Part shown: positions 12,473 to 25,309 of the stretch, in pieces
How positions within the stretch are numbered: the stretch's first letter is position 1
Layout: every line of letters begins with the position of its first letter
Source: Candidatus Taenariivivens baikalensis
GTDB taxonomy: Bacteria; Omnitrophota; Omnitrophia; Omnitrophales; Aquincolibacteriaceae
Assembly: GCA_009691445.1 (NCBI GenBank)
Contig: SICL01000001.1
Span: forward strand, 129,738-193,737
DNA: 64,000 nucleotides
Direction of reading: 5' to 3'
Notes under the pieces: model-generated
The model's input: the letters and a program-made list of their open reading frames with translations, nothing else
Told to the model about the DNA's origin: nothing
Database searches by the model: none
Program-made: the position numbers and the translations under genes

Positions 12473-13417
12473 CTACACAGTCTTTGAACGCGCGGTCTTG
12501 GGACGCTTGACTGTCCCCCGCCGGTCATGCCAAGGAAAACGATTAAGATTTAAAATCCGGTCCCAGTCGTAAAAAATGAGCTGTAAAATTATCAAATCGG
12601 GGAAAAAAATATTTTGCAATAATAAAATAAAGCCATGGAGCATCATCCCAATCAACGGATAAATCATCCTTAGATGCCAAGAAAAAAGAATCACCGGATA
12701 AAACAACTCGGAAAAAACAGCCGCGGCAGAAAGTAAAATCCAAACACCGTCCGGCCAATGGATTGTTCCGAGGCCCACCTGGAAACGAAAATGCATAATC
12801 CCCAAGGTATCCTGAAGAATATGATGCTTTAAGTTCCACGGGGCAAACCATTCGAGGCCGCTATTATGAAGTTTGGCATAACCAGCCTGAAAATAGCAAC
12901 CCGCCATGACGGCACGAAGCAGAAAGACTGACCACCCATAAATGACCTGCTGAGTTTCTTTTTCTCCGGATCTTCCCTTTTTTTGACTTTGGCTTTGATC
13001 CCAGGAAAGCCCATCTTCAACGGGAAGCCATAACATAAAAAACATGAGATAAAACGGAAGCAAACCCGTATGAAAAAACCAGGCATAGGCCCGGGGAACA
13101 CTGATATAAATAAAATACATGACCGTCGCCGCAAGTAAACTCCAGCGAGTTTGGCATCCCACCAGTGCCATCAGTAAAAAAACGACGAGAAGCAGCTTAA
13201 ATGCGGCTAGGATCACCGAAGATGAAAGCAAAACCGCCATCATCGAACGCGGGACAAACATCATAAAACCAATGGGACGATACCAATCAAAGGGAACTTC
13301 ACTGAATACCGGAAAATTTTCCCAAAGCACATAAAAGAGTGCTGTCAATAGCACCAGAATCCGGATTGCTCCAAGCCGGGACGCGTTGCACATCCCCACC
13401 ATCTTTCGCTCAAACAT
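12473..13417 (-). CDS. HTTM-domain integral membrane protein (vitamin-K-dependent gamma-carboxylase-like fold)
   Basis: About 8 TM segments with an HTTM-like N-terminal pattern (SRLGAIRILVLLTALFYVLW...FDWYRP). Start set at the internal ATG at 13417, preceded by an AGGAG Shine-Dalgarno sequence. Confidence 0.55.
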   Translation of the reverse strand: MFERKMVGMCNASRLGAIRILVLLTALFYVLWENFPVFSEVPFDWYRPIGFMMFVPRSMMAVLLSSSVILAAFKLLLVVFLLMALVGCQTRWSLLAATVMYFIYISVPRAYAWFFHTGLLPFYLMFFMLWLPVEDGLSWDQSQSQKKGRSGEKETQQVIYGWSVFLLRAVMAGCYFQAGYAKLHNSGLEWFAPWNLKHHILQDTLGIMHFRFQVGLGTIHWPDGVWILLSAAAVFSELFYPVILFSWHLRMIYPLIGMMLHGFILLLQNIFFPDLIILQLIFYDWDRILNLNRFPWHDRRGTVKRPKTARSKTV

Positions 13418-15212
13418 CGGAAGACTCCTCATACGGTTTACCGATCGCTCTTTGGATCACAAATCCTCGATTGGGATCCCGGGGATCGTCGAAAGCATTC
13501 CATTTCCAGCGCTCAAAATGAATTTCAGCAATCCCGGGATCTCCCGATTTACGAAATCTCCGGTCATAAGCTTTGTCATAGATTGTTGTAAATTCGTTGG
13601 CAAGTTCAGGACTTTTAAGGGCTTCCTCGACATACCGTTTTGAACGGCCGTCGGCAAGTATTGGCAGCACCTGATGATCGGGGATCTTTACTTCTTTACC
13701 ATCTTGGAGAATGACCACCATCTTGTCGTAAAGAACGGTTTTTTCTTCAACAAACGAAAACATCTGGAAGGCGGTCAGAGGGAAAAACTCAATGCGGTAA
13801 ATCATCTGAAAAAGCAGATACATTCCATACAAACAAAGAATCCATTTCGGGCGTGCTTCCTGGCGAGTTCTCGTAAAAATAAAAATTACGAGGAATGCCA
13901 AAGCAGCCGTACCCACCAAGGCCTTGAGTTCAAAATCTTTATTTCGATCAGGAAAGCTGCGATACTCCCATCCCGTTTTCTCAATGCTCTTCTCGCGGTC
14001 GAGAGACTCCATCTCTTTCAATCCTTCCGCAACCGCATCCGCAAAAACAGCGTGGCCTGTCCGGACGGGACAATCATCATCATGAATCACCCGGTAGACA
14101 GGAGTTCCGGCTTTAAGAGCTTTTTGCACCGCGGGAAGTACGTCCACATAACCAATTCTTGCCGCACGCAAAAAATCAATCGTCCGGCTGCGGAAGTAAT
14201 TCTCATTTTCGATTAGGTTTTTGAATTTTTCTGATATCGCAAGATCTGATTCGGAAAGAAACTGAGCATAAGCAGATTCTTTTGTGGGAATCAGCACCGG
14301 GACAAACTTCACCGCCTCTTTTTGAAGACGATCCTGGATATCTCGGAGGATTTCCAGCGTGATTCTCATCCCTTCAATAATCCGGGGATCCTCACGGCCC
14401 AGCGCAAGCGCTCGGTATTCGGGCCAAAAAATCATATGGAGGCGTGGATCGTCCACGACCTCCGCAACCCCTTCAACCTTTTGCGCAGCCGCCTTGATCG
14501 TATCCCATTTTGATTCAAGAAAGGCCGCATGACGATTCTCAGTTCCATTCAGTTTATGTTTCAAAAAAAGGCCAAAACGGTAGCACGCGGAATAGCTGAG
14601 TAATCTCCTCATCCCGCCACAAAAACCTTTCGACGACGAAATGTTTCCGCGATAGATTCCTTCCTGTTCCGTCATAAGACTCTGAATGTCCCGGACTTTT
14701 TTCGAAAGAGGAAACCGGTTTTCCAGCTCCGTCCACTGTCGGATGCGATTTGGATCCTGATCACGAAACCGATCCATACGCTTTTCCACATAAACTGTTT
14801 CAAAGACTTTTAAAAAATCACTTCCCAAATCAAGATTCACAAAAATCGTCTTGGGCTTGAAGGCAAGGACAGTATTTAACTGCTCATAAGAATCCACCAA
14901 ACTGAGATAAGGACGGGACACGGTATAAACCGGTTTGCCTAACAAAGAGCCCAACTTGAGTGGCCAAGCATTTTTCTTATCCCAGCATGAGCCGCTGCCC
15001 TGGGAGTCTCCCAAAACGATGAGATCCGCCTGCTTGACGCCCCGGGGATTGGGAAATCCCCTTTCATCCAACTGGGAATGACGAGCAATCCAGTAATGAC
15101 CTCCGAAAGGAAGCAGGATTTCTCCCAAAACAAACAGAAGAATGAACCAGATCACGAAGGTCTTGAGAGAAGATGAAGGACGAATGGGTCCCGAAGACGA
15201 TAATTTAAGCAT
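13410..15212 (-). CDS. Membrane-anchored protein with an SGNH/GDSL-like hydrolase N-domain and an unknown C-terminal domain
   Basis: N-terminal TM helix, a GDSQGSG block-I-like motif, a second TM helix near residue 430, then a 150-aa hydrophilic C-terminal domain. Confidence 0.4.
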   Translation of the reverse strand: MLKLSSSGPIRPSSSLKTFVIWFILLFVLGEILLPFGGHYWIARHSQLDERGFPNPRGVKQADLIVLGDSQGSGSCWDKKNAWPLKLGSLLGKPVYTVSRPYLSLVDSYEQLNTVLAFKPKTIFVNLDLGSDFLKVFETVYVEKRMDRFRDQDPNRIRQWTELENRFPLSKKVRDIQSLMTEQEGIYRGNISSSKGFCGGMRRLLSYSACYRFGLFLKHKLNGTENRHAAFLESKWDTIKAAAQKVEGVAEVVDDPRLHMIFWPEYRALALGREDPRIIEGMRITLEILRDIQDRLQKEAVKFVPVLIPTKESAYAQFLSESDLAISEKFKNLIENENYFRSRTIDFLRAARIGYVDVLPAVQKALKAGTPVYRVIHDDDCPVRTGHAVFADAVAEGLKEMESLDREKSIEKTGWEYRSFPDRNKDFELKALVGTAALAFLVIFIFTRTRQEARPKWILCLYGMYLLFQMIYRIEFFPLTAFQMFSFVEEKTVLYDKMVVILQDGKEVKIPDHQVLPILADGRSKRYVEEALKSPELANEFTTIYDKAYDRRFRKSGDPGIAEIHFERWKWNAFDDPRDPNRGFVIQRAIGKPYEESSDV

Positions 15213-16374
15213 GCTCTTTTACCGATCCGATGTGGTGATAAAAATCCAGTGTCAATTGCGCCATTTGATGCCATGTATATCGACGGGCGCGGCACAGCCC
15301 CTGAAGCTTAAACCGTTCCGCCGTTTCTGAATCACGGGACAGAACCTCATCCAGCGCCTCCGCCATTTTCTGTGAATCATGAGGATCCACCAGCCGAACA
15401 TCATGTCCGAGATTTTCCTGGTGAGGCGGAATATCGGATGCAATCACGGGAATTCCCGAAGCCATCGCCTCCAGCGGGGGCGATGACCATCCTTCCCAAA
15501 ATGAAGGAAAAAAGAACGTCCGGGCGGCACTGTAAAGCATCGGAAGATCCTCGGATTCTTGATCCAACCAGCCCGTCATAAAAACATCTCCCGTTAAATT
15601 CATGTCTGGAATCAGTTGAGCTAAATCTCGGGCATACGCGGGCATTCCGCCCGCAAGAACCAGCATCAAGTCCGAATACCCTTTTTTCTTTTTTAATAGG
15701 GAAAAGGCTTCAAGAATTCCCTGAATGTTTTTATTCCTCTGAATTCCACCCGCATAAAGCACATAGGGACGTTCAAAACTAAAACGCTTTTTCAGATACG
15801 CACGAGCCTGTTGAATGTCTCGGGGATAAAACTCATTTCCAATCCCAAGCGGAGTCACCTTGATTTTATTTGCCCCCACACCGTAATGCGCCATAAAATC
15901 CTGCTTCATGGACTCAGATACACAGATAAAGTAATCGGCATTCCGAAGCGCTTTCTTCATAAAGGCTTCGTAATAGCGCACATAAGATGGATCTAAATGC
16001 CCAGGAATCCGCAGATGAGCCACGGAATGAATCGTGACAACCAGGGGCAGGCGACCGCGCGGGGGCAGGATTTCTCCAAGAGAATGAAAAAGATCGATTC
16101 CCCCAAGAAATGCTCCCAGCGGAGGAATCCCCCATTCATTCCACAGCCACTTAACGACCCCACCCGGAAGATAGATTAACCGGTTACGCATGCGTGATAA
16201 GTTTGGGAACTGAGGAACGGGATAAGCGGGCTTTCGAAATCTAAAATAGAAAGCAATAAATTCGTCCGTGCTCGTAGTTGACTCGGAGGCCAGGGCCTGA
16301 ATCAAATTTACCGCATATCGGCGAATAGCCCTCTCTCCGTGAATCATTTCGTTACCGTCAATTCCGATTTTCAT
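15205..16374 (-). CDS. GT4 glycosyltransferase
   Basis: EGWSSPPLEAMASGIPVIASDIPPHQE (EX7E region). ATGA overlap with the upstream GT39 gene. Confidence 0.8.
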   Translation of the reverse strand: MKIGIDGNEMIHGERAIRRYAVNLIQALASESTTSTDEFIAFYFRFRKPAYPVPQFPNLSRMRNRLIYLPGGVVKWLWNEWGIPPLGAFLGGIDLFHSLGEILPPRGRLPLVVTIHSVAHLRIPGHLDPSYVRYYEAFMKKALRNADYFICVSESMKQDFMAHYGVGANKIKVTPLGIGNEFYPRDIQQARAYLKKRFSFERPYVLYAGGIQRNKNIQGILEAFSLLKKKKGYSDLMLVLAGGMPAYARDLAQLIPDMNLTGDVFMTGWLDQESEDLPMLYSAARTFFFPSFWEGWSSPPLEAMASGIPVIASDIPPHQENLGHDVRLVDPHDSQKMAEALDEVLSRDSETAERFKLQGLCRARRYTWHQMAQLTLDFYHHIGSVKEHA

Positions 16375-17960
16375 AGAGATTTCAGGGGCTTTTTTAAGTC
16401 ATATATCAAAAAATTCGGATCATGAAAGACCACGGGAAAACTTCTATTTAAAAACATCTTCAAATCACCCTGTAAAGCAAGCTGCTCAAGATCCGCAACC
16501 ACAAAATAGTCCCAAGATCCATACTTTTGATAATTTCGGAATCGCTCCTCAGCCGATAACCGCGAAATTCGTCGAATGATTTCAAAATTCATCTGTTCTT
16601 GGCTGGGCCATTCTAATCCCGAAACCCAGCCGTAATACTGAAGCATTTTCCCGGCACCCCACGAGCCCGGCAAATAAATCATACGGGTACTGTGGAGAGT
16701 GGCTTCACCAATCTTTTTTGCATTTGCAATCGTTTGTTCCTGTGAGGAAAACTGATAACTTCTTTCAATATATTTTGTTTTCCCCCAAATTTTCCCGAAG
16801 ATCCCTGCAGCCAAAATCAGCATCAGAAAAACCCAGGGGGATTTTTTAAAATAGCCCGAATAAGGCTTCGCCCGCTCGGCCAGCGCTGCCACTCCCAAAC
16901 AAATCCACGGCATCAGCATCAGTTGATAATATTCATGGGTGTGGATTTGATAAGTGAAGACAAGTCCAAAAATAAAATAGCCAATCCCGTATCCAATCAT
17001 GATCGCGCGTGCCTTGGAGTTGCGAAAAAGAAATAAACCTGTGACCGCAAAAAGCAAAGGGACAAATCCAATCACGATTCCTAGAAGACCTTTCCATCCA
17101 AGCCAGAAGTGGGGTGTCAAAATTAAATAGGGAAGGATACTGACTTGAAACTGCCACTGTAAAAAATCGCCTGTCACAATCCGGTAAACGTAATGCCCCG
17201 CCACTGGAAGAACCAATCCTAAAAAGAATATCCATAGCTGAAAATTCAATAACGCTTTTTTTAGACCATCGCGCTGCCAAATCCCCATACAAAAAGCCCC
17301 TAAAATAGGGAAAAGACAAAGCGGTTTAATCCAAACCGCGAGAATAGAAACTAACGCAGTGGAAAGAAAACTGGAGTCGGCGTCACCCTGAAAATAATCG
17401 ATAATCCTCTGGATTGAAAAAAGTAGCATCACCAGCATCAGGATGTCCGGCTGAAAGCTGGTGCTGATAATAATTCCATAGGGGAAAAAGAGAAATAGAA
17501 AGGCTGAGAAGCACGCGATTTCCGAACCAAACCACTTTTTCGCCAGTTGGTACAAGGCAAGTGCCGCCCAAAACCATATTCCGACAGCCAGAACGCGTGG
17601 GACCCACTCACGTTCTCCCCCAGCCACGGCATATCCCAGTGCAACCGCCATTTGAAACACGGGCGGCTCCAGGCGTTCCTGCTTTTGACCTTGTTCAATC
17701 GCAACCTCCTGGTTCCAGCGATCAGCGGGTTTTACTTTGCCAGCAAAATATTGGTAATAAAGACCACGGCTAATTAAGCGGTCATAATACTGACGGCCTT
17801 TATGAAATCCCGAAGGATGATGAACGATATAGGGAATTCGGATGAGAAGGGCCAAAAGAAGCAAGGCAAAGACAAGGGCTGGGCGGTACTTGGAAGTTTC
17901 AGCAGTGCGGTTGATCGGGGACATGATGTCTCTATTGATCGGAAAAAAAGACCGATACAT
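16371..17960 (-). CDS. GT-C glycosyltransferase of the PMT/ArnT (GT39/GT83) family
   Basis: Polytopic membrane protein with a PMT_2-like N-terminal region (EPPVF...GGEREWVPRVLAVGIWFWAALALYQLAKKWFGSEIACFSAF). Confidence 0.65.
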   Translation of the reverse strand: MYRSFFPINRDIMSPINRTAETSKYRPALVFALLLLALLIRIPYIVHHPSGFHKGRQYYDRLISRGLYYQYFAGKVKPADRWNQEVAIEQGQKQERLEPPVFQMAVALGYAVAGGEREWVPRVLAVGIWFWAALALYQLAKKWFGSEIACFSAFLFLFFPYGIIISTSFQPDILMLVMLLFSIQRIIDYFQGDADSSFLSTALVSILAVWIKPLCLFPILGAFCMGIWQRDGLKKALLNFQLWIFFLGLVLPVAGHYVYRIVTGDFLQWQFQVSILPYLILTPHFWLGWKGLLGIVIGFVPLLFAVTGLFLFRNSKARAIMIGYGIGYFIFGLVFTYQIHTHEYYQLMLMPWICLGVAALAERAKPYSGYFKKSPWVFLMLILAAGIFGKIWGKTKYIERSYQFSSQEQTIANAKKIGEATLHSTRMIYLPGSWGAGKMLQYYGWVSGLEWPSQEQMNFEIIRRISRLSAEERFRNYQKYGSWDYFVVADLEQLALQGDLKMFLNRSFPVVFHDPNFLIYDLKKPLKSL

Positions 17961-17977: not shown

Positions 17978-19639
17978 TCAGGAAGAATGGCAGTTTTCAG
18001 GATGCGTCGATTCAAGGACAAGTGTCTTTGAATCCCGGAATAAAACCCTGACGACCGAGGCAAGAAGCGAAGGAAACGCCTTTTCAGAAGGGACGATGAA
18101 ATAACGAAATCCATAATCCCGGCACAAAGAGTCATACTCGCCGCGAACTGCCAACTCCTTGATGACTTTATCTTTAGACTCGAGGAGCGCAGGAACCCGG
18201 GAAAGATATCCAAACGCCATCGGCTTTTCATGCAGCGTCTGGTAATACAAGGCTTCGTGGCGGGTGGAGACTGTGTCGATCATAGCCCCTGGCGGTAACG
18301 TCTGTAAAAGTCGGATAGACTCAGGGACGCTCATCGAAATTCCTGGGAATCTTGCCGGCCAATATTCAAAAAAAAGCACGACCATCAGCAAAGAGGTGAA
18401 AACACGATGCTTCATCGGTCCTCGCCACAAGTTCCTCAAGGCCATCGCACCGATCACGGCAAGACTGAGTTGAGTCACATCAAACATCCGCGCAGGAATA
18501 CCGGACAATTTAAAAGCTGGAAAAAAATATTCCAAAGCTGCATAAGGCAGAGGAACCGGGTAGGCCCTCCCCATCAGATTCAGCTGTGGACCAAGTGCAA
18601 AAATCGCAAAGACTCCCGCAAGGCCCAGCCAAAGATTCAGTGACTCTTCCTGAAAAGATTTCCGGTTAAAGAGGACGTAGAGAAGCAAAAAAATCAGCGT
18701 AAACCCAACAAATAAACTAGATTCATAGTAATTACCCTTCCAGGAACCCCAGATCTCCCGAGTCCAAGCCGCATAATGAGAAAATCCACCGGGCAGCAAG
18801 GGTGAAAGAAGATCCATCGAATAATCACGGGAATCATGCAATCCTTCCGGCAGAGGCCCCTGGGAATATCCGTGAAGCATCGGCTTGATAAATAAAAAAA
18901 CACTGATCAGGAAAAGAGAGGCCACAAACGTCACGACTTTTCGATTTTGAAATAATAAATTCAGGAAATCCTTTCCCGTTCTTTTTACGAACCCGAGAAA
19001 AATAAGAAAAACACAGAGAGCGGCATAAAAAAAATAATACTGACAGCTCCATGAAATAAGGAAGAAAACGATGGCGGCCGCAATCCCCTTTCGAACATTA
19101 AAGGTTTCGAGAAATTGAAAGGTTAATAAAAGGAAGAGCGGGTTCCATTCAAAGGAAATCATGTGGATATGTCCTGAGGCTGCGTGGGCCATATGGGCAT
19201 TGGAAAACGCATAAATCAATCCCCCGGCAAGACTCGGGATGTAAGACCGCGTAAAATAGCGGCACAAACAGAAGGCGTTGAGCCCACCCAGGACAAACGA
19301 TCCCATGACCAGAAAATTATGGGACTGGATTCTTGTGAAAACAAACTGGAGTCCGGTATAGATCAACCCCTTCAGGGGAGCCAGACTGTGCGTATACAGA
19401 TCAACTCCGAAAGGGTAATGCAGAAAGCTTGTATGCCAAAAAGACGTGTGGAGCGACAGAAGAGACTTGGAAATCCACCAGAGGTTCCAAATGGACTGAA
19501 GACCATCCCGCCTGTCCGTGAAAAAATGAGATGAAAACTTCTGCATCAAAGGGAATGTGTAAACGTAAAAACAGAAAAAATAAATGAGGGCAGGAACGAC
19601 GAACGAAGTAAAACTCTTCCCGATTTTTTGAGAATTCAT
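17978..19639 (-). CDS. Polytopic membrane protein, putative GT-C-like glycosyltransferase (YfhO/DUF-type)
   Basis: More than 12 TM helices and a HYPFG motif. The start was trimmed to the ATG at 19639 (MNSQKIGK). The track's TTG start at 19732 would make the ORF run through a structured repeat element. Confidence 0.45.
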   Translation of the reverse strand: MNSQKIGKSFTSFVVPALIYFFCFYVYTFPLMQKFSSHFFTDRRDGLQSIWNLWWISKSLLSLHTSFWHTSFLHYPFGVDLYTHSLAPLKGLIYTGLQFVFTRIQSHNFLVMGSFVLGGLNAFCLCRYFTRSYIPSLAGGLIYAFSNAHMAHAASGHIHMISFEWNPLFLLLTFQFLETFNVRKGIAAAIVFFLISWSCQYYFFYAALCVFLIFLGFVKRTGKDFLNLLFQNRKVVTFVASLFLISVFLFIKPMLHGYSQGPLPEGLHDSRDYSMDLLSPLLPGGFSHYAAWTREIWGSWKGNYYESSLFVGFTLIFLLLYVLFNRKSFQEESLNLWLGLAGVFAIFALGPQLNLMGRAYPVPLPYAALEYFFPAFKLSGIPARMFDVTQLSLAVIGAMALRNLWRGPMKHRVFTSLLMVVLFFEYWPARFPGISMSVPESIRLLQTLPPGAMIDTVSTRHEALYYQTLHEKPMAFGYLSRVPALLESKDKVIKELAVRGEYDSLCRDYGFRYFIVPSEKAFPSLLASVVRVLFRDSKTLVLESTHPENCHSS

Positions 19640-19654
19640 AGCGCAGGGGGTTTT

Positions 19655-19736
19655 GTCATTGCGAGTCCCGCGCCTTGGCGGAGACACGGCAATCTCTGGC
19701 CAAAACCCGAGATTGCTTCGCTTTGCTCGCAATGAC
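19655..19736. repeat. Structured intergenic repeat (copy A): terminal inverted repeats GTCATTGCGAG/CTCGCAATGAC and nested inner inverted repeats GCAATCTC/GAGATTGC
   Basis: 11 bp perfect terminal inverted repeats about 60 bp apart, with an 8 bp inner inverted repeat. Homologous to the copies at 54147-54260 and 63357-63420. Confidence 0.7.
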
Positions 19737-19796
19737 TGAGAGAAAGTTGATAACCAAATAGGCTGTTAGTTTCTTGCATGATTTAATATTTTAAAA

Positions 19797-21653
19797 TCAG
19801 GCTCGGTTACGAAGTGAAACAACAGGCGCATAGAGAGATCGGCGTTCTCTCACCCACCAAGCCCCTGTTTTCTTATGCGTTTGGGGATCCGCAAAATGGT
19901 AATCATACAGCGTCGCCTGAATGTAGCGCGGTGGATCGTCCGGAAAGGGATTATTCTTCAAAAGCCTTAAGACATCGGGAGATCCTTTAAGCAATTTTTC
20001 ACAGAAGCCGGCAAACCATGGATGTTCTTTGTAACTGCCCAACGCGGCAAACCACATCTGCCAATCCAAGCGCGGCTGATGAGGAAGGTTAAACCCCGGG
20101 CGTCTCATCACATCACCGGGCTTATATTGAAATTCATACGCTTTCCAAGTAATACGATTATTGGATCCTTCGATAATAATTTCCGGGCGCTCCGTCGTCA
20201 TCACCGAGAAAAGCCCATATTGATTAAACGATCGTAAAGGGCGAAGAATATTACTGGGGATCGTTAAAGCGGGAATGGAAAAATTTAAAATAGCCGGGAC
20301 CTGATTCAGAGTTCCCAAAAGAGCCGTCGCCGCAACCGTTCCTACCACCCACTTGGGCCACCCATAATTCTTGGAGAAAGGCGTTCGCTTTTCAAGACTT
20401 TGAAAGAAATAAAGGCAGCTCGCCGGCCAAGTCTGATCATCAATGAGAGGGACACAAAGCACGATCGTGAGTAAATTAAAAAAACAGTAATTACCCGTCA
20501 GCATAATTAGAACCTGAAGCGCAGTAATCGCCGCAGCGGCATAAGAACGAAGTCGGCGCGGCCCCCAAATCAAGAAAGGCGCCAAAAGTTCAACCCCAAA
20601 CATAACAAGGGCAGAAAACTGGTGAAACCCAACGGGAAGAAAATGAAAATACCAGGCCGCCCCGGTCGGAAGCGGTTGAGTTTGATAATGATAAGTCAGC
20701 GCGGTGAGGTGACTCCAGTTCGGATCCCCGCTTCGAAGCTTCATCATCCCGGAAAAAAACATGAGGCGGAAAAGAAGAAAATAAAGTAAAAGACGGATCA
20801 GGTTTGACGCATTGAATCCGCGAAAAACAGGATCGTTTTTTCCGCCCGGCCTCCAGGAGGCCAGAAAAATGGAAAGAAAACCGCTCTCAAGCAAAAGATT
20901 ATCCCATTGAAAGGACATGAAATCCTGGCCTGCGTTCAGCAGGGACAGATAAAGGACCCAAAGGATAAAAAGTACGGGTGCCGGTGAAATTCCTCCAATG
21001 ACCAATAAAGATCCTGCAACTCCCGTCCAACAAACCGTCTGAAGAACTAAGTCGCTCGCATCAAACCAAAACAGGGTCGGAACATGAAAGTAAGCCCCTG
21101 ATCCATAATTCGCATGCAAAAGCGTAAGATACTCTTTAGCGGAAAGAATACCCTTCGAGCCCACCAGGCCCAGGATCTGGGAGGCTAAAGACAAAAATGA
21201 AAATAAATAGATCACGCCCATTAACTTAATAAAAAGCTGCGCGGCAAACCGGTACGTGGACGGGTTTAAATCATCGCCCCAAAGAAAACGTGTCAGATTT
21301 GAAAAGAAAACTCGGTGGGATGCCACAAGCCGGTAAAAGAATTCAGACAATGCCCGGAACCCGGAAACCTTTTGATAAAGCCCAAGAAGCCACGTCTTTC
21401 CCGGAGCGTAAGAAAGCGCGCGGAAAACAGCTTCCGCGCCCTCATAAACATTTCCGTCGGTTTCGATCAGCTGAATCGAACGCTCAAACGACTCTTTTTC
21501 TATTTCGGGATAGATGGCACCCATTTTTTGCGCAGTGTCATAATCCACCCGGGAGTCTGTGAAAACTATCCAGCGATTAATCCACCGGCGGCAAAATCCG
21601 CATTCCCCGTCAAAAATTATGAGGGGCTTTTCGGGAAAATGAGATACGTTCAT
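19797..21653 (-). CDS. DCC1-like thiol-disulfide oxidoreductase (DUF393) fused to an HTTM domain and a lipase-maturation-factor (LMF)-like C-terminal domain
   Basis: IFDGECGFCRRWINRW matches the DCC-family motif. A central multi-TM HTTM-like region follows. The C-terminal ...NPFPDDPPRYIQATLYDYHFA resembles the LMF1-family C-terminus. Start set at the ATG at 21653 (MNVSHFPEK). Confidence 0.6.
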   Translation of the reverse strand: MNVSHFPEKPLIIFDGECGFCRRWINRWIVFTDSRVDYDTAQKMGAIYPEIEKESFERSIQLIETDGNVYEGAEAVFRALSYAPGKTWLLGLYQKVSGFRALSEFFYRLVASHRVFFSNLTRFLWGDDLNPSTYRFAAQLFIKLMGVIYLFSFLSLASQILGLVGSKGILSAKEYLTLLHANYGSGAYFHVPTLFWFDASDLVLQTVCWTGVAGSLLVIGGISPAPVLFILWVLYLSLLNAGQDFMSFQWDNLLLESGFLSIFLASWRPGGKNDPVFRGFNASNLIRLLLYFLLFRLMFFSGMMKLRSGDPNWSHLTALTYHYQTQPLPTGAAWYFHFLPVGFHQFSALVMFGVELLAPFLIWGPRRLRSYAAAAITALQVLIMLTGNYCFFNLLTIVLCVPLIDDQTWPASCLYFFQSLEKRTPFSKNYGWPKWVVGTVAATALLGTLNQVPAILNFSIPALTIPSNILRPLRSFNQYGLFSVMTTERPEIIIEGSNNRITWKAYEFQYKPGDVMRRPGFNLPHQPRLDWQMWFAALGSYKEHPWFAGFCEKLLKGSPDVLRLLKNNPFPDDPPRYIQATLYDYHFADPQTHKKTGAWWVRERRSLYAPVVSLRNRA

Positions 21654-21669: not shown

Positions 21670-22122
21670 TTAAGATATGGTGATTTGATCGGATAACTCA
21701 TTCTCATCATCGGATTGAGCCGGGAAATACTGATGGAGTTTTTCCCCGGCTCGCTCAATCGCTTGAACAATTCCTTCCGCAAACCGGTCCTCACGAAAGG
21801 ATCGAGTCATCTGCTCGCTGATCTCGGTCCAAAAGGATTCGGGAACTTTTTTGTGAATCCCTTCATCCCCGAGGATCGCAAACTTCCGGTTTTTAAGTGC
21901 CAGAAAAATCAAAACCCCGTTTCGGTCTTTGGTTTTTGTCATCCCAAGCTTCTGAAAAATCTCTTGAGCATGCTCCAGAACATCTTTTGTGATTTTCTCA
22001 TCAAGATGGACTCTGATTTCCGCGGAGGTTCTCAACTCAACGCTCTTAATCGCTCGAAAAACAAGATGCTCTTCAGATCGTGAGAAAAAATGCTTCGGAA
22101 AATGCCGGCGATTAAAATTCAT
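21670..22122 (-). CDS. TPM-domain protein (small, soluble)
   Basis: NGVLIFLALKNRKFAILGDEGIH aligns with the NGLILLIFKNDQKMRIEVGYGLE core of the neighbouring TPM protein. Confidence 0.5.
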   Translation of the reverse strand: MNFNRRHFPKHFFSRSEEHLVFRAIKSVELRTSAEIRVHLDEKITKDVLEHAQEIFQKLGMTKTKDRNGVLIFLALKNRKFAILGDEGIHKKVPESFWTEISEQMTRSFREDRFAEGIVQAIERAGEKLHQYFPAQSDDENELSDQITIS

Positions 22123-22125
22123 TTT

Positions 22126-22926
22126 TTACCATCCCCCACTTGCGCCGCCACCACCAAAGCTTCCACCGACGCCGGAAAATCCACCGCCACCACCACCCGA
22201 GGATCCCCCGGATGAAGAGCTGTAGCTTCCTCCGGAAGTCATCATAACTCTTAAAATAAACCAAATGATTGCAAAATGAATCCACCACTCCAAAAATCCG
22301 TAACGGTGCGGATATTGATGACGCGAAACGGCATAATAGACATAACGAGCAAAATCAATTCCCATGAAAAGTAAAAACGACCACACAATAAATGAGAATA
22401 GAAAACTTGGCTGAGACGAACCCTTCGGACCCAAATAGTCTTCTCCTTGTGTAGCTTCCATAATCGCCCTCACGCCTTGAATGACTCCTTGGTCGTATTG
22501 TCCCAGCTTGAAGTTCGGGGCAATCACCTCGCGAATAATCTGGCCGCAAAGCGCATCAGGAAGCCGGGACTCAAGTCCGTAGCCGACCTCGATTCTCATT
22601 TTTTGGTCATTTTTGAAAATTAGCAAAATAAGTCCGTTATCATATTTTTTTTGCCCAACTTTCCACTTTTCCGCCAGGTGAATGGAAAAATCCTCCAGGG
22701 ATTGACCATCCAGACTCGGGAAAGTGACCACCACGATTTGATGACTCGTGGAAGATTCGAAATTTTTTAGGGTATTTTGGAGAAAAATCCGGGCTTGATC
22801 GGAAAGGATCTGGGCATAATCACTGATATAACCTTGTGGATGTTCAGGAATTTCCAGGGCAAAGGCGCGCAAAGAAAAAAAACACCAAGCCACTAGACTT
22901 AAAACTAGAACACGAAAAAATCTCAT
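22126..22926 (-). CDS. TPM-domain protein (YgcG-like) with a C-terminal TM segment and a Gly/Ser-rich tail
   Basis: Signal peptide, TPM core, TM helix and a GGSSGGGGGGFSGVGG tail; the typical partner of LemA. Confidence 0.7.
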   Translation of the reverse strand: MRFFRVLVLSLVAWCFFSLRAFALEIPEHPQGYISDYAQILSDQARIFLQNTLKNFESSTSHQIVVVTFPSLDGQSLEDFSIHLAEKWKVGQKKYDNGLILLIFKNDQKMRIEVGYGLESRLPDALCGQIIREVIAPNFKLGQYDQGVIQGVRAIMEATQGEDYLGPKGSSQPSFLFSFIVWSFLLFMGIDFARYVYYAVSRHQYPHRYGFLEWWIHFAIIWFILRVMMTSGGSYSSSSGGSSGGGGGGFSGVGGSFGGGGASGGW

Positions 22927-22929
22927 CGT

Positions 22930-23526
22930 TTAAAATTTTACTTGCGGAGCTTTCTGAGCGCCTTCTTCAGCCTGAAAATAAGCTTTGGAAGAAAATCCCA
23001 TCAGCTTAGCAATGAACACTGTGGGAAACTGGCGGCGTAATGTATTAAACGTTTGAGCGGCTTCGTTAAAGCGCATCCGTTCAACGGTAATTCGGTTTTC
23101 CGTTCCTTCAAGCTGGGTTTGAAGAGTTAAGAAATTCTGATTCGCTTTCAGATCCGGGTACTTTTCCACCACGATCATCAGACGGCTGATGGCACTCGAA
23201 AGCTCTCCCTGTGATTGTTGGAACTTTTTCAGAAGCTCGGGATTATTCACGATTTCCGCACCCGCCTGAATGGATGTTGCTTTAGAACGGGCCGCGACCA
23301 CTCCTTCCAGAGTCTCTTTTTCATGCGCCGCGTAACCTTTCACCGTTTCCACGAGATTAGGAATCAGGTCCAATCGTCTCTGATAAACATTTTGCACCTG
23401 GGCCCAGGCACTTGAGACGGCTTCTTCGCCGGACACAAGACGGTTATACGATCCTCCCCAAAAAGATCCGATCATGAAACCGATACCCACAATGACTGCC
23501 AACGCGATCAGCAAACCTTTTTTCAT
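22930..23526 (-). CDS. lemA: LemA-family protein
   Basis: N-terminal TM helix plus LemA core (VSSAWAQVQNVYQRRLDLIPNLVETVKGYAAHEKETLEGV). Start moved to the ATG at 23526 to clear the mutL stop. Confidence 0.8.
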   Translation of the reverse strand: MKKGLLIALAVIVGIGFMIGSFWGGSYNRLVSGEEAVSSAWAQVQNVYQRRLDLIPNLVETVKGYAAHEKETLEGVVAARSKATSIQAGAEIVNNPELLKKFQQSQGELSSAISRLMIVVEKYPDLKANQNFLTLQTQLEGTENRITVERMRFNEAAQTFNTLRRQFPTVFIAKLMGFSSKAYFQAEEGAQKAPQVKF

Positions 23527-23536
23527 AATTCCCCCG

Positions 23537-25309
23537 TTAAAGTTTCCGTTTAAATTGCTTCTCAAGATCTTCAAATGAAAATTTTAAAAAACTAGGCCGT
23601 CCATGCGGACATCCGTAAGGATTTTGACACTGAAAGAGCTGGACCAAAAGCTCACGCATCGCAGGCAGTGTCATAGCCTCGTGCGCTTTGACCGAGCGAC
23701 GTTTGCAGGCAATGAGAGCCGCGAGCTCTTCCTGGTGATTCCCCAGAGTTGTTTTGATTTTTCCGTCTTCAAGTTCATGCAAATACTGCTTGAGGATCAT
23801 CTGAGGATTTTCATCAGACAAGACTGCCGGCATCGCCCGAATCACAAACGAGTGTTTGCCAAACTCATCAATATCAAAACCAGTCTTCTGGAGAAAAGGA
23901 AGTGAATTGCGGAACATCTCAACTTGTTTGGAAGAAATTTCAAAGATTTCATCCATGAGCAGATTCTGCTTTGTTACCGATCCTGATTCGAAGCCTTTGA
24001 CAACCGCTTCAAACTGGATGCGTTCATGGGCGGCGTGCTGATCCACTAAAAGTAATCCCTCTTCGGTTTCAGCGACAATAAAGGTACCGTGGATTTGACC
24101 TAAAACTTTCGTAATAAACGATTGCCCGATCATCTCAAGCGGCGTTGTCAGATGGGCCTCCATTTGAATCGGAGCCAATAAAACCGTTGAAGCCGTCAAT
24201 TCCAATTCCGGACGAGACGAGGAGGATGAAAATGATCCATAGTTAACCGACGTCGACTCACTCACCCGCTCCGAGAAAACCGGCTCGCGCTGAGTCGTTT
24301 GAACTCGCGTGGATAAATCCAGGGCCTCGGACAGGCGTTTTGATACCGCCTGTTGAACTAAGGATTTGATCGGTGCTTCATTGGAGATCCGGACCTCCTG
24401 CTTCGTGGGATGGACATTCACATCCACGCGGTTTAAATCGCATTCAATCATGATGACGGCAACCGGAAATTGCCCGTGCATCAAACGACCGTGATAGCCG
24501 GCCTGCACCGCGTAGCTGAAGGAAATGGATTTCACCCAGCGGTGGTTAATAAAAAAACTTTGCCCGCTTCGATTCGCAAACGCTAAGGAAGGCTTCCCAA
24601 TCACACCGTGAATTCGAATCCCGGAAACCTGGGCATCAAGATCAAGAAGATCCTTGGACTCCTTAAATCCAAAATACAAAGCCGACCGGTCTTTCAAACT
24701 AACTGTGGGCGGGAGATCAAAAACTTTTTTATCACCATTTTTGAAAACAAAGTGAACATCCAAGCGGGAAAGAGAAAGATTAAGCAAGATATCCTGAAGA
24801 TGGCCAAGCTCCGTCGTGTCGGATTTCATGAATTTTCGCCGAGCAGGAGTATTGAAAAATAAATCCCTGACTTCTACGGTAGTCCCTTCACGGCAAGCCG
24901 CTTCTTTCACGTGCGTAACGCGGCCGCCTTCCATCAAGATCTCAGTCCCGAATGAAGCCTTCTGAAGACGCGAGGTCATCGTCATGCGGGAAACCGCAGC
25001 CATACTCGGCAAAGCTTCACCACGAAATCCGTACGAGGCAATTTCCTCCAAATCTTTATCCGTACTGATTTTGCTCGTGGCGTGACGCTTAAAAGCAGTC
25101 TCAATTTCAGAAGCTGAAATCCCGCAGCCATCGTCCATCACCCGAATCAAACTTTTTCCGCCATGATTGATCGTCACTTCAATAAAGCGAGCTCCGGCAT
25201 CCAAGGAATTTTCGACGAGTTCTTTGACAATCGACGCAGGACGTTCAATGACCTCCCCTGCGGCAATTTTATTCGCAAGTGCTTCTGGAAGAATTTTAAT
25301 GGTCGGCAT
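23537..25309 (-). CDS. mutL: DNA mismatch repair protein MutL
   Basis: GHKL ATPase N-terminus (IAAGEVIERPASIVKELVENSLDAGA) and a MutL C-terminal dimerisation domain. Confidence 0.9.
   Translation of the reverse strand: MPTIKILPEALANKIAAGEVIERPASIVKELVENSLDAGARFIEVTINHGGKSLIRVMDDGCGISASEIETAFKRHATSKISTDKDLEEIASYGFRGEALPSMAAVSRMTMTSRLQKASFGTEILMEGGRVTHVKEAACREGTTVEVRDLFFNTPARRKFMKSDTTELGHLQDILLNLSLSRLDVHFVFKNGDKKVFDLPPTVSLKDRSALYFGFKESKDLLDLDAQVSGIRIHGVIGKPSLAFANRSGQSFFINHRWVKSISFSYAVQAGYHGRLMHGQFPVAVIMIECDLNRVDVNVHPTKQEVRISNEAPIKSLVQQAVSKRLSEALDLSTRVQTTQREPVFSERVSESTSVNYGSFSSSSSRPELELTASTVLLAPIQMEAHLTTPLEMIGQSFITKVLGQIHGTFIVAETEEGLLLVDQHAAHERIQFEAVVKGFESGSVTKQNLLMDEIFEISSKQVEMFRNSLPFLQKTGFDIDEFGKHSFVIRAMPAVLSDENPQMILKQYLHELEDGKIKTTLGNHQEELAALIACKRRSVKAHEAMTLPAMRELLVQLFQCQNPYGCPHGRPSFLKFSFEDLEKQFKRKL

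What the first reader, a model, noticed from the sequence alone, without database searches (positions are those of the whole stretch)
19797..21653. Three-part fusion protein: DCC1-like CxxC oxidoreductase + HTTM + lipase-maturation-factor-like C-terminus
The 618-aa protein (counted from the ATG at 21653) has three parts. It begins with IFDGECGFCRRWINRW, a DCC/DUF393 thiol-disulfide oxidoreductase motif. It continues into a multi-TM HTTM-like core. It ends with ...NPFPDDPPRYIQATLYDYHFA, reminiscent of the LMF1 C-terminal lumenal domain. A redox CxxC module built into the same chain as an HTTM/LMF scaffold suggests an intramolecular electron relay. A second, unfused HTTM paralogue (12473-13417) lies 6 kb away in the same operon.
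Basis: partly seen in the sequence, partly recalled or inferred. Interest (0 to 1): 0.6.

Follow-up and report, generated by a model that had tools for sequence, protein, structure and literature searches.

The report
Bacterial LMF1 homologue fused to thioredoxin-like domain
This gene encodes an ordinary member of a very large, already annotated but functionally unstudied bacterial family: a cytoplasmic two-cysteine redox domain joined to a homologue of human lipase maturation factor 1, whose membrane part has the fold of the vitamin K-dependent carboxylase.

Summary
ORF 19797-21653 (-) encodes 618 aa with Pfam DCC1-like (aa 12-115), LMF1 (246-409) and LMF1_C (476-610).

It is not rare. Thousands of proteins in at least 600 species-level genomes from more than 10 phyla share the architecture, and NCBI already names them "lipase maturation factor family protein". 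An identical protein is already public.

- **Fold:** a confident AlphaFold model (pLDDT 93, pTM 0.92) matches only GGCX among solved structures. An invariant Lys/Trp/acid set (K305/W313/E355) sits where GGCX has K218/W223/D263.
- **Topology:** the CxxC is predicted cytoplasmic and the conserved Lys site periplasmic.
- **Cysteines:** some family members have no cysteine other than the CxxC, so a DsbD-like thiol cascade is excluded as the general mechanism.
- **Best guess (inferred):** the cytoplasmic dithiol is coupled to the periplasmic site through a membrane quinone.
- **Second gene:** the "second HTTM paralogue" (12473-13432) is real at fold and profile level although Pfam misses it. Its relatives are often fused to DCC1.

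The wider interest is comparative. Human LMF1 is a speculative candidate for the unidentified ER reductive shuttle fed by cytosolic thioredoxin.

The parts
19797..21653 (-). Complete ORF, 618 aa: DCC1-like domain fused to a full-length LMF1-family protein
   Evidence: ORF and translation. Pfam architecture. An identical protein, P0001, is in public data.
21309..21620 (-). DCC1-like thioredoxin-fold domain (aa 12-115), predicted cytoplasmic
   Evidence: Pfam PF04134, E 3.3e-13. The model shows a beta-alpha pattern with pLDDT 92-98. There are weak Foldseek hits to GST N-terminal (thioredoxin-fold) domains. There is no signal peptide, and topology analysis gives N-in.
21591..21611 (-). DCC motif D15-G-E-C18-G-F-C21
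   Evidence: C18 and C21 are present in 119/120 close homologues and in 132/151 diverse representatives. They are the only cysteines kept throughout the family.
20310..21251 (-). Membrane core of about nine helices (aa 135-448) with the GGCX/HTTM fold
   Evidence: Helices from the AF2 model. Family hydropathy and K+R bias. Foldseek finds only GGCX chains as significant hits, E 5.5e-6, probability 1.0.
20886..20909 (-). Invariant Q249-W250-D251...E256 motif at the periplasmic start of helix 4. It replaces the Glu-binding N159/H160 region of GGCX.
   Evidence: Conservation. Indirect alignment through ORF6: ORF6 H120 aligns with fusion E256 and with GGCX H160.
20715..20741 (-). Invariant K305...D310...W313 motif (GMMKLRSGDPNW) at the periplasmic end of helix 5, the likely counterpart of GGCX K218/W223
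   Evidence: K305 and W313 are 100% conserved in the 120 close homologues and in the 150 classified diverse representatives. The only local hhalign alignment to GGCX puts K305 on K218, although it is not significant on its own (E 0.44). ORF6 K187/W195 align to GGCX K218/W223 and to K305.
20589..20591 (-). E355 in helix 6, a conserved membrane-embedded acid that may correspond to GGCX D263, which H-bonds vitamin K
   Evidence: E355 is Glu in 119/120 close homologues and Glu or Gln in the diverse set. It aligns with the invariant E242 of ORF6. GGCX K218 and D263 both H-bond the quinone. The equivalence to D263 is inferred from spacing only.
19824..20228 (-). LMF1_C beta-rich domain (aa 476-610), predicted periplasmic
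   Evidence: Pfam PF25179, E 1.8e-52. The model shows beta strands. The GGCX alignment spans 527-550 columns and so includes this domain. Invariant residues are R489, E491, R528 and D530-W534.
12473..13432 (-). Separate, unfused HTTM-fold membrane protein (314-319 aa), a remote relative of the fusion's core
   Evidence: No Pfam hit. hhalign against the fusion family gives E 3.3e-5 over 206 columns. The AF2 model has pLDDT 81.5. Foldseek finds only GGCX, TM-score 0.61. Relatives found by profile search carry PF05090 (3) or PF04134 (19 of 51).

Best explanation
**What it is (shown).** The gene encodes a typical member of the bacterial 'lipase maturation factor family'. It has an N-terminal DCC1-type thioredoxin-fold domain carrying D-x2-C-x2-C, fused to a full-length LMF1 homologue. 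The LMF1 part consists of a nine-helix membrane core with the fold of vitamin K-dependent gamma-carboxylase (GGCX), followed by a beta-rich LMF1_C domain.

**Topology (predicted, not measured).** The N-terminus is inside and the C-terminus outside. The CxxC is therefore cytoplasmic, and LMF1_C is periplasmic.

**Conserved sites.**
- The strictly invariant polar residues cluster in the outer leaflet and in a three-short-helix cap: Q249-W250-D251, K305, D310, W313, H322, Q326, N388 and N393. E256 and E355 are nearly invariant.
- This is where GGCX binds vitamin K hydroquinone between K218 and D263.
- The residues with which GGCX holds its glutamate substrate are replaced, so the enzyme is not a Glu carboxylase.

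**How it most likely works (inferred).**
- The membrane core binds a membrane quinone or quinol in the GGCX-like pocket and uses it, through K305, to act on an exported or envelope substrate held by the periplasmic LMF1_C domain.
- The cytoplasmic DCC1 dithiol is the built-in redox partner that re-reduces, or otherwise cycles, that lipid-soluble cofactor at the inner face.
- The CxxC pair is the only cysteine pair kept across the family, so reducing power cannot cross the membrane through a chain of cysteines. A diffusible or flipping quinone is the simplest link.
- On this view the protein is a self-contained version of what is proposed in the ER for LMF1 plus cytosolic thioredoxin.
For: - **Architecture and abundance:** Pfam hits. 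There are 6355 homologues, and the top 120 nearly all share the three domains. There are 2466 50%-identity clusters at E<=1e-30. At least 600 species-level genomes across many phyla carry it.
- **Fold:** the AF2 model has pLDDT 93.3 and pTM 0.92. All 14 PDB hits at E<=1e-3 are GGCX, and the next hit has E 0.3.
- **Quinone-site anatomy:** The model has three short helices (311-314, 319-325, 331-337) between helices 5 and 6. K305 and W313 are invariant and E355 is nearly invariant (Glu, or Gln in a few).
- **Topology:** K+R counts are 8.3 in the predicted inner loops against 3.6 in the outer loops, averaged over 120 sequences. GGCX has nine TM helices with its domain and active site at the lumenal interface.
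- **No thiol cascade:** C208 and C400 are variable and unrelated to presence of the CxxC (Fisher p=1). Four of 268 full-length members have no Cys after residue 130 yet keep every invariant residue checked except E355, which is Gln in two of them.
- **Recurrent DCC1 pairing with this fold:** DCC1 is N-terminal here. It is C-terminal in 19 of 51 relatives of ORF6 and in the HTTM-DCC1 protein of Melghirimyces.
- **No conserved partner:** no operon partner recurs in 71 cross-phylum loci, which fits a self-contained unit.
- **Eukaryotic parallel:** LMF1 loss makes the ER more oxidising, LMF1 interacts with TRX, and it is a named candidate for the Trx-driven membrane reductive pathway.
Against: - No quinone binding, redox activity or substrate has been shown for any bacterial LMF-family protein. 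The quinone link rests on fold homology alone.
- Sequence-level alignment to GGCX is not significant (E 0.44). Pfam HTTM does not hit.
- The CxxC and the putative quinone site lie on opposite membrane faces. The cofactor would have to move between them, which is unproven.
- I could not read model coordinates, so no distances were measured.
- Some relatives lack the DCC1 domain (about 10 of 151). Four keep it with a degenerate Cys motif. Eukaryotic LMF1 has no such domain, so the core can work without a fused dithiol.
- GGCX chemistry needs O2, and the oxygen tolerance of this Omnitrophota organism is unknown.
Confidence: 0.4

Rival explanations
1. DsbD-like thiol relay. Electrons pass from the cytoplasmic CxxC to cysteines in the membrane helices, and then to cysteines of the periplasmic domain. 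This is what has been speculated for human LMF1.
For: Human LMF1 has conserved cysteines in cytosolic loops, TM regions and the lumenal domain that are reported to be needed for activity and to interact with TRX and ERdj5. In this protein C208 (helix 2) and C400 (helix 8) are fairly conserved, at 83% and 93% among close homologues. They also co-occur more often than chance (odds ratio 2.7, p=0.006).
Against: - In 268 family members, 18 lack both C208 and C400.
- Five have no Cys in the membrane core.
- Four have no Cys anywhere after residue 130, yet these are full length and keep almost every invariant residue.
- Presence of these cysteines is independent of presence of the CxxC (p=1).
- No periplasmic-domain cysteine is conserved; C551 occurs in 21 of 132 diverse members.
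Confidence: 0.07
2. One reading: an intramolecular relay in which the DCC1 Cys pair directly faces the HTTM active-site cavity on the same side of the membrane.
For: The fusion is strongly conserved. The high pTM (0.92) implies that the DCC1 domain is docked on the membrane core in a defined way. DCC1 pairs recurrently with this fold.
Against: - The N-terminal domain has no signal peptide.
- The positive-inside analysis gives N-in.
- In GGCX the active site and vitamin K pocket lie in the lumenal leaflet.
- In the ORF6-type relatives the DCC1 domain follows an eight-helix core with a strongly basic C-terminal tail, so it is again on the cytoplasmic side (and sequence inspection).
- The invariant polar cluster maps to outer-leaflet helix ends and the cap.
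Confidence: 0.08
3. Redox sensor or structural cap. The DCC1 domain does not pass electrons to the core. Instead it senses cytoplasmic thiol redox state, or simply stabilises the cytoplasmic face, and allosterically gates a periplasmic chaperone or enzyme activity of the LMF core.
For: - Four diverse representatives keep the domain with one or both cysteines replaced, and about 10 lack it altogether, with the core invariants unchanged.
- Eukaryotic LMF1 works without it.
- The cytoplasmic residues R366, R369, D405 and D406 stay conserved in unfused forms.
Against: The CxxC is kept in 132 of about 140 domain-bearing representatives and in 119/120 close homologues. Independent fusions of DCC1 to another branch of the same membrane fold point to a shared chemical partner rather than a lineage-specific regulator.
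Confidence: 0.25
4. Envelope-glycan role. The protein is part of the surrounding glycosyltransferase/GT-C cluster and acts on a lipid-linked glycan or on a glycosylated envelope protein.
For: The gene lies in a co-directional array with a PMT_2-like GT-C, GT4s, a GT2, methyltransferases and a second HTTM-fold protein. In another Omnitrophota genome a PMT_2 gene sits directly upstream of the orthologue.
Against: None of the window's neighbours recurs next to the gene in 80 loci from other phyla. No neighbour family exceeds 12 of 71 loci, and those reflect lineage synteny. A third Omnitrophota locus has unrelated neighbours.
Confidence: 0.1

Closest known systems
Eukaryotic lipase maturation factor 1 (LMF1, Pfam PF06762 + PF25179)
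   Same: Both Pfam LMF models match end to end at E about 1e-53. The N-in/C-out layout is the same, with the C-terminal domain on the non-cytoplasmic side. There is a link to thiol redox: LMF1 interacts with cytosolic TRX, and its loss makes the ER more oxidising.
   Different: The bacterial protein carries its own thioredoxin-fold CxxC domain. It has no conserved membrane or C-terminal-domain cysteines. No lipase client is known or expected, and nothing has been tested experimentally.
[quoted passage not shown] PDB 9l20, 9bvk)
   Same: It is the only solved structure with a significant fold match, covering both the membrane and extramembrane domains. It also has nine TM helices and a three-short-helix cap. 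It has a Lys/Trp/acid trio at the outer-leaflet pocket.
   Different: Sequence identity is only 12-14%, and there is no significant sequence or profile match. The Glu-binding N159/H160 are replaced by the QWD...E motif. The Lys-to-Trp spacing is 8 rather than 5. GGCX has no fused redox domain and relies on the separate enzyme VKOR.
Bacterial HTTM-DCC1 fusion proteins (e.g. Melghirimyces A0A1G6IBF2 with its DUF5819 partner; cyanobacterial relatives of ORF6)
   Same: The same two building blocks are present, a GGCX-fold membrane core plus a DCC1-like CxxC domain predicted to be cytoplasmic.
   Different: The domain order is reversed, with DCC1 C-terminal. The core is the short HTTM type without LMF1_C. 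The extramembrane part is supplied by a separate DUF5819 protein in the published prediction.
Bacterial VKOR-thioredoxin fusions and DsbB (my own knowledge of the VKOR/DsbB literature, not checked here)
   Same: They follow the general principle of a thioredoxin-fold Cys pair coupled to a membrane quinone within one system.
   Different: There the Trx-like domain and the quinone site are both periplasmic, the membrane domain carries its own CxxC, and the fold is a four-helix bundle. None of this applies here. No fold match was found.
DsbD/CcdA transmembrane thiol-disulfide transporters
   Same: They bring cytoplasmic thioredoxin-type reducing power to the periplasm, which is the role speculated for LMF1.
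   Different: They require two invariant membrane cysteines, whereas this family has none. The fold is unrelated.

Membership tests
DCC1-like / DUF393 thiol-disulfide oxidoreductases (PF04134) | Profile match above the curated threshold | tested here: met
   51.3 bits against a cut-off of 27.8, E 3.3e-13, aa 12-115 covering model positions 1-108 of 113.
DCC1-like / DUF393 thiol-disulfide oxidoreductases (PF04134) | D-x-x-C-x-x-C motif at the start of the first helix | tested here: met
   D15-G-E-C18-G-F-C21 directly precedes helix 19-35. It is conserved in 119/120 homologues.
DCC1-like / DUF393 thiol-disulfide oxidoreductases (PF04134) | Thiol-disulfide oxidoreductase activity | not testable with these tools
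   This needs an insulin-reduction or similar assay on purified domain.
Lipase maturation factor family (PF06762 + PF25179) | Both LMF1 and LMF1_C profiles matched end to end | tested here: met
   181.8 bits (model positions 1-161 of 163) and 177.5 bits (positions 2-139 of 139). NCBI names its homologues 'lipase maturation factor family protein'.
Lipase maturation factor family (PF06762 + PF25179) | Polytopic membrane protein with a cytoplasmic N-terminus and the C-terminal domain on the far side | tested here: met
   This is a prediction only, based on helices from the AF2 model and family-wide positive-inside bias of 8.3 against 3.6.
Lipase maturation factor family (PF06762 + PF25179) | Required for maturation of secreted lipases or other disulfide-rich clients | not testable with these tools
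   There is no genetic or biochemical data for any bacterial member.
HTTM / vitamin K-dependent carboxylase superfamily | Match to Pfam HTTM (PF05090) | tested here: not met
   There is no PF05090 hit at E<=1 for the fusion. There is none at E<=10 for ORF6.
HTTM / vitamin K-dependent carboxylase superfamily | GGCX-type fold of the membrane domain | tested here: met
   Fusion: 14 GGCX chains at E<=1e-3, probability 1.0. ORF6: TM-score 0.59-0.62, rmsd about 5.3 Å over about 300 columns, with GGCX the only family hit.
HTTM / vitamin K-dependent carboxylase superfamily | Catalytic Lys (GGCX K218) with stacking Trp (W223) | tested here: inconclusive
   K305 and W313 are invariant. The only local alignments put K305 and ORF6 K187 on K218, but at non-significant E values of 0.44 and 0.15. 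Structural superposition at residue level was not available.
HTTM / vitamin K-dependent carboxylase superfamily | Glu-substrate-binding N159/H160 (gamma-carboxylase function proper) | tested here: not met
   By transitive alignment the position of H160 is E256 in the fusion, preceded by the LMF-specific QWD motif. I therefore do not file it as a Glu carboxylase.
HTTM / vitamin K-dependent carboxylase superfamily | Dependence on a reduced naphthoquinone and O2 | not testable with these tools
   This needs cofactor analysis and enzymology.
DsbD/CcdA-type transmembrane thiol relay | Invariant, essential cysteine pair inside the membrane domain | tested here: not met
   Five of 268 members have no Cys in the core, and four have none after residue 130. 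C208 and C400 are variable.

The most novel reading that the evidence does not exclude
The bacterial DCC1-LMF1 fusion is a 'Rosetta stone'. On this reading, LMF-family proteins, including human LMF1, are not passive chaperones. They are GGCX-like, quinone-using membrane enzymes that take reducing power from a cytosolic thioredoxin-fold protein and deliver it to the far side of the membrane without a cysteine cascade. That would identify the mechanism of the long-sought ER reductive pathway, for which LMF1 is so far only a speculative candidate. It would also give the pathway a tractable bacterial model. I found no paper in the searchable library that links LMF1 to the GGCX fold, to quinones, or to the bacterial DCC1 fusion.
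Probability: 0.2. Interest if true: 0.85.

Novelty: new member of a known kind. Interest (0 to 1): 0.45.

Why it matters
The gene itself is ordinary. It is one more copy of a family that public databases already annotate by the thousand.

The family's comparative message appears undiscussed in the literature I could search, and it has three parts:

1. LMF1-type proteins have the vitamin K carboxylase fold and keep its Lys/Trp/acid cofactor site.
2. In bacteria they are usually welded to a cytoplasmic CxxC domain. This parallels the reported dependence of human LMF1 on cytosolic thioredoxin.
3. The bacterial proteins show that no membrane cysteine chain is needed.

Together these turn a vague proposal, that LMF1 shuttles reducing equivalents into the ER, into specific experiments. 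One is to test for quinone binding. Another is to mutate the conserved Lys. A third is to reconstitute a bacterial orthologue.

Tried and rejected
**Searches that found nothing**
- NCBIfam gave no hit for the fusion or for four of its neighbours.
- Sequence and profile searches of PDB sequences with the fusion, its family profile and the ORF6 profile found nothing meaningful.
- hhalign of either family against the single GGCX sequence was not significant. I used it only to see which motif aligns.

**Tools or papers that were unavailable**
- Model coordinates are not exposed. I could not measure the distance from the CxxC to K305 or the docking surface of DCC1.
- The primary LMF1 redox paper (Roberts 2018) is not held. 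Its content is cited through reviews.

**Ideas considered and rejected**
- A conserved operon partner: clustering 1025 neighbour ORFs from 80 loci gave only lineage-specific synteny.
- A separate DCC1 gene next to unfused LMF genes: L082 has none, and L081 has a decayed remnant with stop codons.
- The longer GTG start at 21794.
- A terminator or promoter in the 19733-19796 gap: none was found, and the scans were not above shuffled expectation.
Full report
**1. The observation**

ORF 19797-21653 on the minus strand encodes 618 aa from the ATG at 21653.

A longer GTG-initiated ORF reaching 21794 would overlap the upstream TPM-domain gene (21670-22122). The ATG start is supported by an identical 618-aa public protein (P0001) and by homologues that align from residue 1-10.

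Pfam gives three strong, non-overlapping hits:
- DCC1-like PF04134, aa 12-115, E 3e-13.
- LMF1 PF06762, aa 246-409, E 1e-53.
- LMF1_C PF25179, aa 476-610, E 2e-52.

Pfam HTTM (PF05090) does not hit, and NCBIfam has no model. LMF1 and LMF1_C are the two halves of one family. The protein is therefore a two-part fusion: DCC1 plus a full-length LMF protein.

**2. How common it is**

- A word-indexed search found 6355 homologues at E<=1e-5. Of the top 120, 119 have the same three Pfam domains.
- NCBI calls them 'lipase maturation factor family protein', and JGI calls them 'DCC family thiol-disulfide oxidoreductase YuxK'.
- An exhaustive HMMER scan of 1.84 billion cluster representatives found 10145 clusters at E<=1e-3 and 2466 at E<=1e-30.
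The best 80 loci carry the full-length fusion at 43-51% identity.
- The phyla represented include Acidobacteriota, Verrucomicrobiota, Planctomycetota, Poribacteria, Elusimicrobiota, Nitrospinota, Dadabacteria, Chloroflexota, Latescibacterota, Eisenbacteria and Proteobacteria.
- Among 151 diverse representatives, 132 have an intact D/C/C motif. About 10 lack the N-terminal domain, and four keep the domain with a degenerate motif.
- One 'unfused' gene (L081) has a decayed DCC1 remnant with stop codons upstream. Another (L082) is genuinely unfused.

The window itself comes from a Candidatus Omnitrophica MAG. This follows from the identical neighbour protein P0269, locus tag EXS63_00695.

**3. Fold**

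AlphaFold2 with the 120-sequence alignment gave pLDDT 93.3 and pTM 0.92.

Foldseek against the PDB returned 14 hits at E<=1e-3. All are human GGCX cryo-EM chains (best 9l20_A, E 5.5e-6, probability 1.0). They align over 527-550 columns at 12-14% identity, and the next hit has E 0.3. The alignment length shows that the LMF1_C domain is covered as well as the membrane core.

The global TM-score is only 0.34-0.40. This presumably reflects the unmatched DCC1 domain and different domain orientations. The N-terminal domain gives only weak hits to GST N-terminal (thioredoxin-fold) domains.

Sequence-level methods do not see GGCX.

**4. Active-site anatomy**

According to the GGCX structure paper (PMC12647623):
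- GGCX has nine TM helices.
- The quinone is H-bonded by K218 and D263.
- K218, the general base, stacks on W223.
- N159, H160 and Y395 hold the glutamate substrate.

In the fusion model I count nine hydrophobic helices. Three short helices (311-314, 319-325, 331-337) lie between helices 5 and 6.

The family's invariant polar residues are Q249, W250, D251, K305, D310, W313, H322, Q326, N388, Y389 and N393. Invariant residues in the C-terminal domain are R489, E491, R528 and D530-W534. E256 and E355 are nearly invariant (119/120). K305, W250, W313, R489 and D530 remain 100% conserved in the diverse set, whether or not the DCC1 domain is present.

After verifying the human GGCX sequence against the PDB, I ran hhalign against it.
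- The scores are not significant.
- The only local alignment puts fusion K305 on K218.
- For ORF6 it puts K187/W195 on K218/W223 and H120 on H160.
- Through the ORF6-fusion alignment, the H160 position corresponds to E256 in the fusion, and ORF6 E242 corresponds to E355.

My reading is that the cofactor-handling Lys/Trp/acid trio is retained and the Glu-binding residues are not. The equivalences are inferred, because no residue-level structural superposition was possible.

**5. Topology**

There is no signal peptide. Averaged over 120 sequences, the loops predicted to be cytoplasmic carry 8.3 Lys+Arg, against 3.6 in the loops predicted to be periplasmic. The cytoplasmic figure does not include the RRxR at the start of helix 7.

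This N-in/C-out layout agrees with GGCX and with the published LMF1 topology diagram. It has two consequences:
- The DCC1 CxxC is cytoplasmic.
- The invariant Lys-centred site and LMF1_C are on the periplasmic side.

The high pTM suggests that it docks in a defined way.

**6. Cysteines**

Human LMF1 is proposed to shuttle reducing equivalents using cytosolic, membrane and lumenal cysteines. I tested the equivalent idea here.

- Among 120 close homologues only C18 and C21 are essentially invariant. The others are C400 at 93%, C208 at 83%, C551 at 71% and C390 at 66%.
- In the diverse set these fall to 77%, 67%, 16% and 11%.
- Across 268 sequences, 18 lack both C208 and C400.
- The presence of any of these cysteines is independent of the presence of the CxxC (Fisher p=1 for C208 and C400, 0.46 for C390, 0.81 for C551).
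- Five members have no Cys in the membrane core and four have none after residue 130. P0183, P0197 and P0218 contain exactly two cysteines, C18 and C21.
- All of these are full length. They retain every invariant residue checked, except that E355 is Gln in P0218 and P0268.

A DsbD-like cysteine cascade therefore cannot be the general mechanism of this family.

**7. The second gene**

ORF 12473-13432 (314 aa from the ATG at 13417, as annotated in P0269) has no Pfam or NCBIfam hit and only 16 close homologues. Four lines of evidence nevertheless place it in the HTTM superfamily:
- hhalign against the fusion family gives E 3.3e-5 over 206 columns. The Lys, Glu/Pro and 'N-aromatic-F-F' motifs are in register.
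- Its AF2 model (pLDDT 81.5) matches only GGCX, with query-normalised TM-score 0.59-0.62 and rmsd about 5.3 Å over about 300 columns.
- A profile search reaches 51 relatives. Three carry PF05090 and one is named 'HTTM domain-containing protein'.
- Nineteen of those 51 carry a fused DCC1-like domain, in this case C-terminal.

A 2026 preprint describes the same HTTM-then-DCC1 order in a Firmicute protein that is predicted to form a GGCX-like complex with a DUF5819 partner.

DCC1 is also a recurrent partner of this membrane fold in two branches and in both domain orders, apparently always on the cytoplasmic side.

**8. Context**

The gene sits in a long co-directional array:

MutS - MutL - LemA - TPM - TPM - fusion - a 584-aa membrane protein with no family - a PMT_2-like GT-C - GT4 - an AlgX-like protein - ORF6 - GT4 - GT2 - methyltransferases - GT4.

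The gaps are short. Neither a terminator nor a promoter is predicted between the fusion and its downstream neighbour, but the scans were no better than shuffled sequence.

Within Omnitrophota there is partial synteny:
- One genome has MutS-MutL-LemA-fusion.
- Another has a PMT_2 gene directly upstream of the fusion.
- A third has unrelated neighbours.

Across 71-80 loci from other phyla, no neighbour family exceeds 12 loci, and those cases are Verrucomicrobia synteny. None of the window's neighbours recurs apart from occasional GT4s. The gene has no conserved partner, which fits a self-contained fusion. The operon link to ORF6 is local and unverified.

**9. Mechanism**

Three groups of findings are shown or predicted:
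- The architecture, the fold and the conservation pattern.
- The predicted topology.
- The absence of a conserved cysteine path, and the recurrence of the DCC1 partnership.

The rest is inferred. The element shared by all DCC1-partnered proteins is the GGCX-fold core with its Lys-containing pocket, so DCC1 most likely services what that pocket holds. By homology that is a membrane quinone or quinol.

The most economical model has three steps:
- The cytoplasmic dithiol reduces, or recycles, a quinone species at the inner face.
- The cofactor then occupies the outer-leaflet pocket.
- There K305 activates it for chemistry on a substrate presented by the periplasmic LMF1_C domain.

This is analogous to GGCX plus VKOR, but in one chain and with the thiol partner on the other side of the membrane. 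I give the mechanistic model a probability of about 0.4.

The main rival, at about 0.25, is that DCC1 is a redox sensor or structural cap with no electron transfer to the core. The direct-contact model, the cysteine-cascade model and the glycan-pathway role are each at or below 0.1.

**10. Comparison and novelty**

The protein passes the membership tests for DCC1-like and for the LMF family. It belongs to the GGCX/HTTM superfamily by fold but not by the Pfam HTTM profile. It lacks the Glu-binding residues, so it should not be called a gamma-carboxylase. It fails the defining feature of DsbD-type relays.

As an object in this window it is a new member of a known, annotated kind. The exact protein and its domain annotation are already public.

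What seems not to be in the searchable literature is any link between LMF1 and the GGCX fold or quinones, or any mention of the bacterial DCC1-LMF1 fusion. That library excludes most subscription journals, so the links may be known elsewhere.

LMF1 is repeatedly named as a speculative candidate for the unidentified ER membrane component of the thioredoxin-driven reductive pathway. The bacterial family therefore offers concrete, testable predictions.

**11. Verdict**

- The gene is an ordinary family member.
- It has moderate interest (0.45) for the comparative hypothesis it supports.
- It has a minority chance (about 0.2) of pointing to a genuinely new view of LMF1 as a quinone-dependent redox enzyme.

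Noticed in passing
window 12473-13432 (-): A 314-319-aa membrane protein that is invisible to Pfam and NCBIfam has the GGCX/HTTM fold. It belongs to a rare family of 16 close homologues. In the wider set of 51 relatives found by profile search, 19 are fused to a C-terminal DCC1-like domain.
   Followed up: yes
window 17978-19732 (-): A 584-aa polytopic membrane protein lies immediately downstream of the fusion gene. It has no Pfam or NCBIfam hit at all and no similarity to the adjacent PMT_2-like GT-C (16371-17960). Its annotated TTG start is probably too far upstream, and an internal ATG at about 19639 is more plausible.
   Followed up: partly
window 21670-23574 (-); L085 7386-7982: A LemA - TPM - TPM module lies directly upstream. 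The stop of the second TPM gene is 16 nt from the fusion's ATG. A LemA gene is also directly upstream of the orthologue in another Omnitrophota contig. The 266-aa TPM protein ends in a Gly/Ser-rich tail.
   Followed up: partly
L083 6237-7985: In a different Omnitrophota genome, a PMT_2 (GT-C) gene ends 16 nt before the fusion orthologue. This echoes the PMT_2-like gene two positions downstream in the window. The pairing is not seen outside this phylum.
   Followed up: partly
L086 9828-10604, L087 6674-7450, and about 10 Verrucomicrobia loci (e.g. L029, L037, L074): An exonuclease III-like Exo_endo_phos gene of about 255 aa sits immediately next to the fusion gene in two phyla. It is upstream in Verrucomicrobia and downstream in one Omnitrophota lineage. 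This is probably chance or local synteny.
   Followed up: no
L081 603-893: Upstream of an apparently unfused LMF gene (P0260) there is a remnant matching DCC1 residues 33-130, interrupted by stop codons. It may reflect decay of the domain in that lineage or assembly errors.
   Followed up: partly
proteins P0244, P0248, P0263, P0265: These family members keep the N-terminal DCC1-like domain, but one or both motif cysteines are replaced (for example S-x-x-C, or none). The membrane-core invariants are intact.
   Followed up: partly
window 13410-15212 (-): A 600-aa protein has a sub-threshold AlgX-type SGNH match (24.5 bits against a cut-off of 26.5). It overlaps the start of the HTTM-fold ORF by 23 nt, which suggests translational coupling of the two.
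   Followed up: no
window about 5000-27942 (-): About twenty consecutive genes lie on one strand with short gaps or overlaps, running from mutS/mutL through the envelope-glycan genes. This is an unusually long co-directional array.
   Followed up: no
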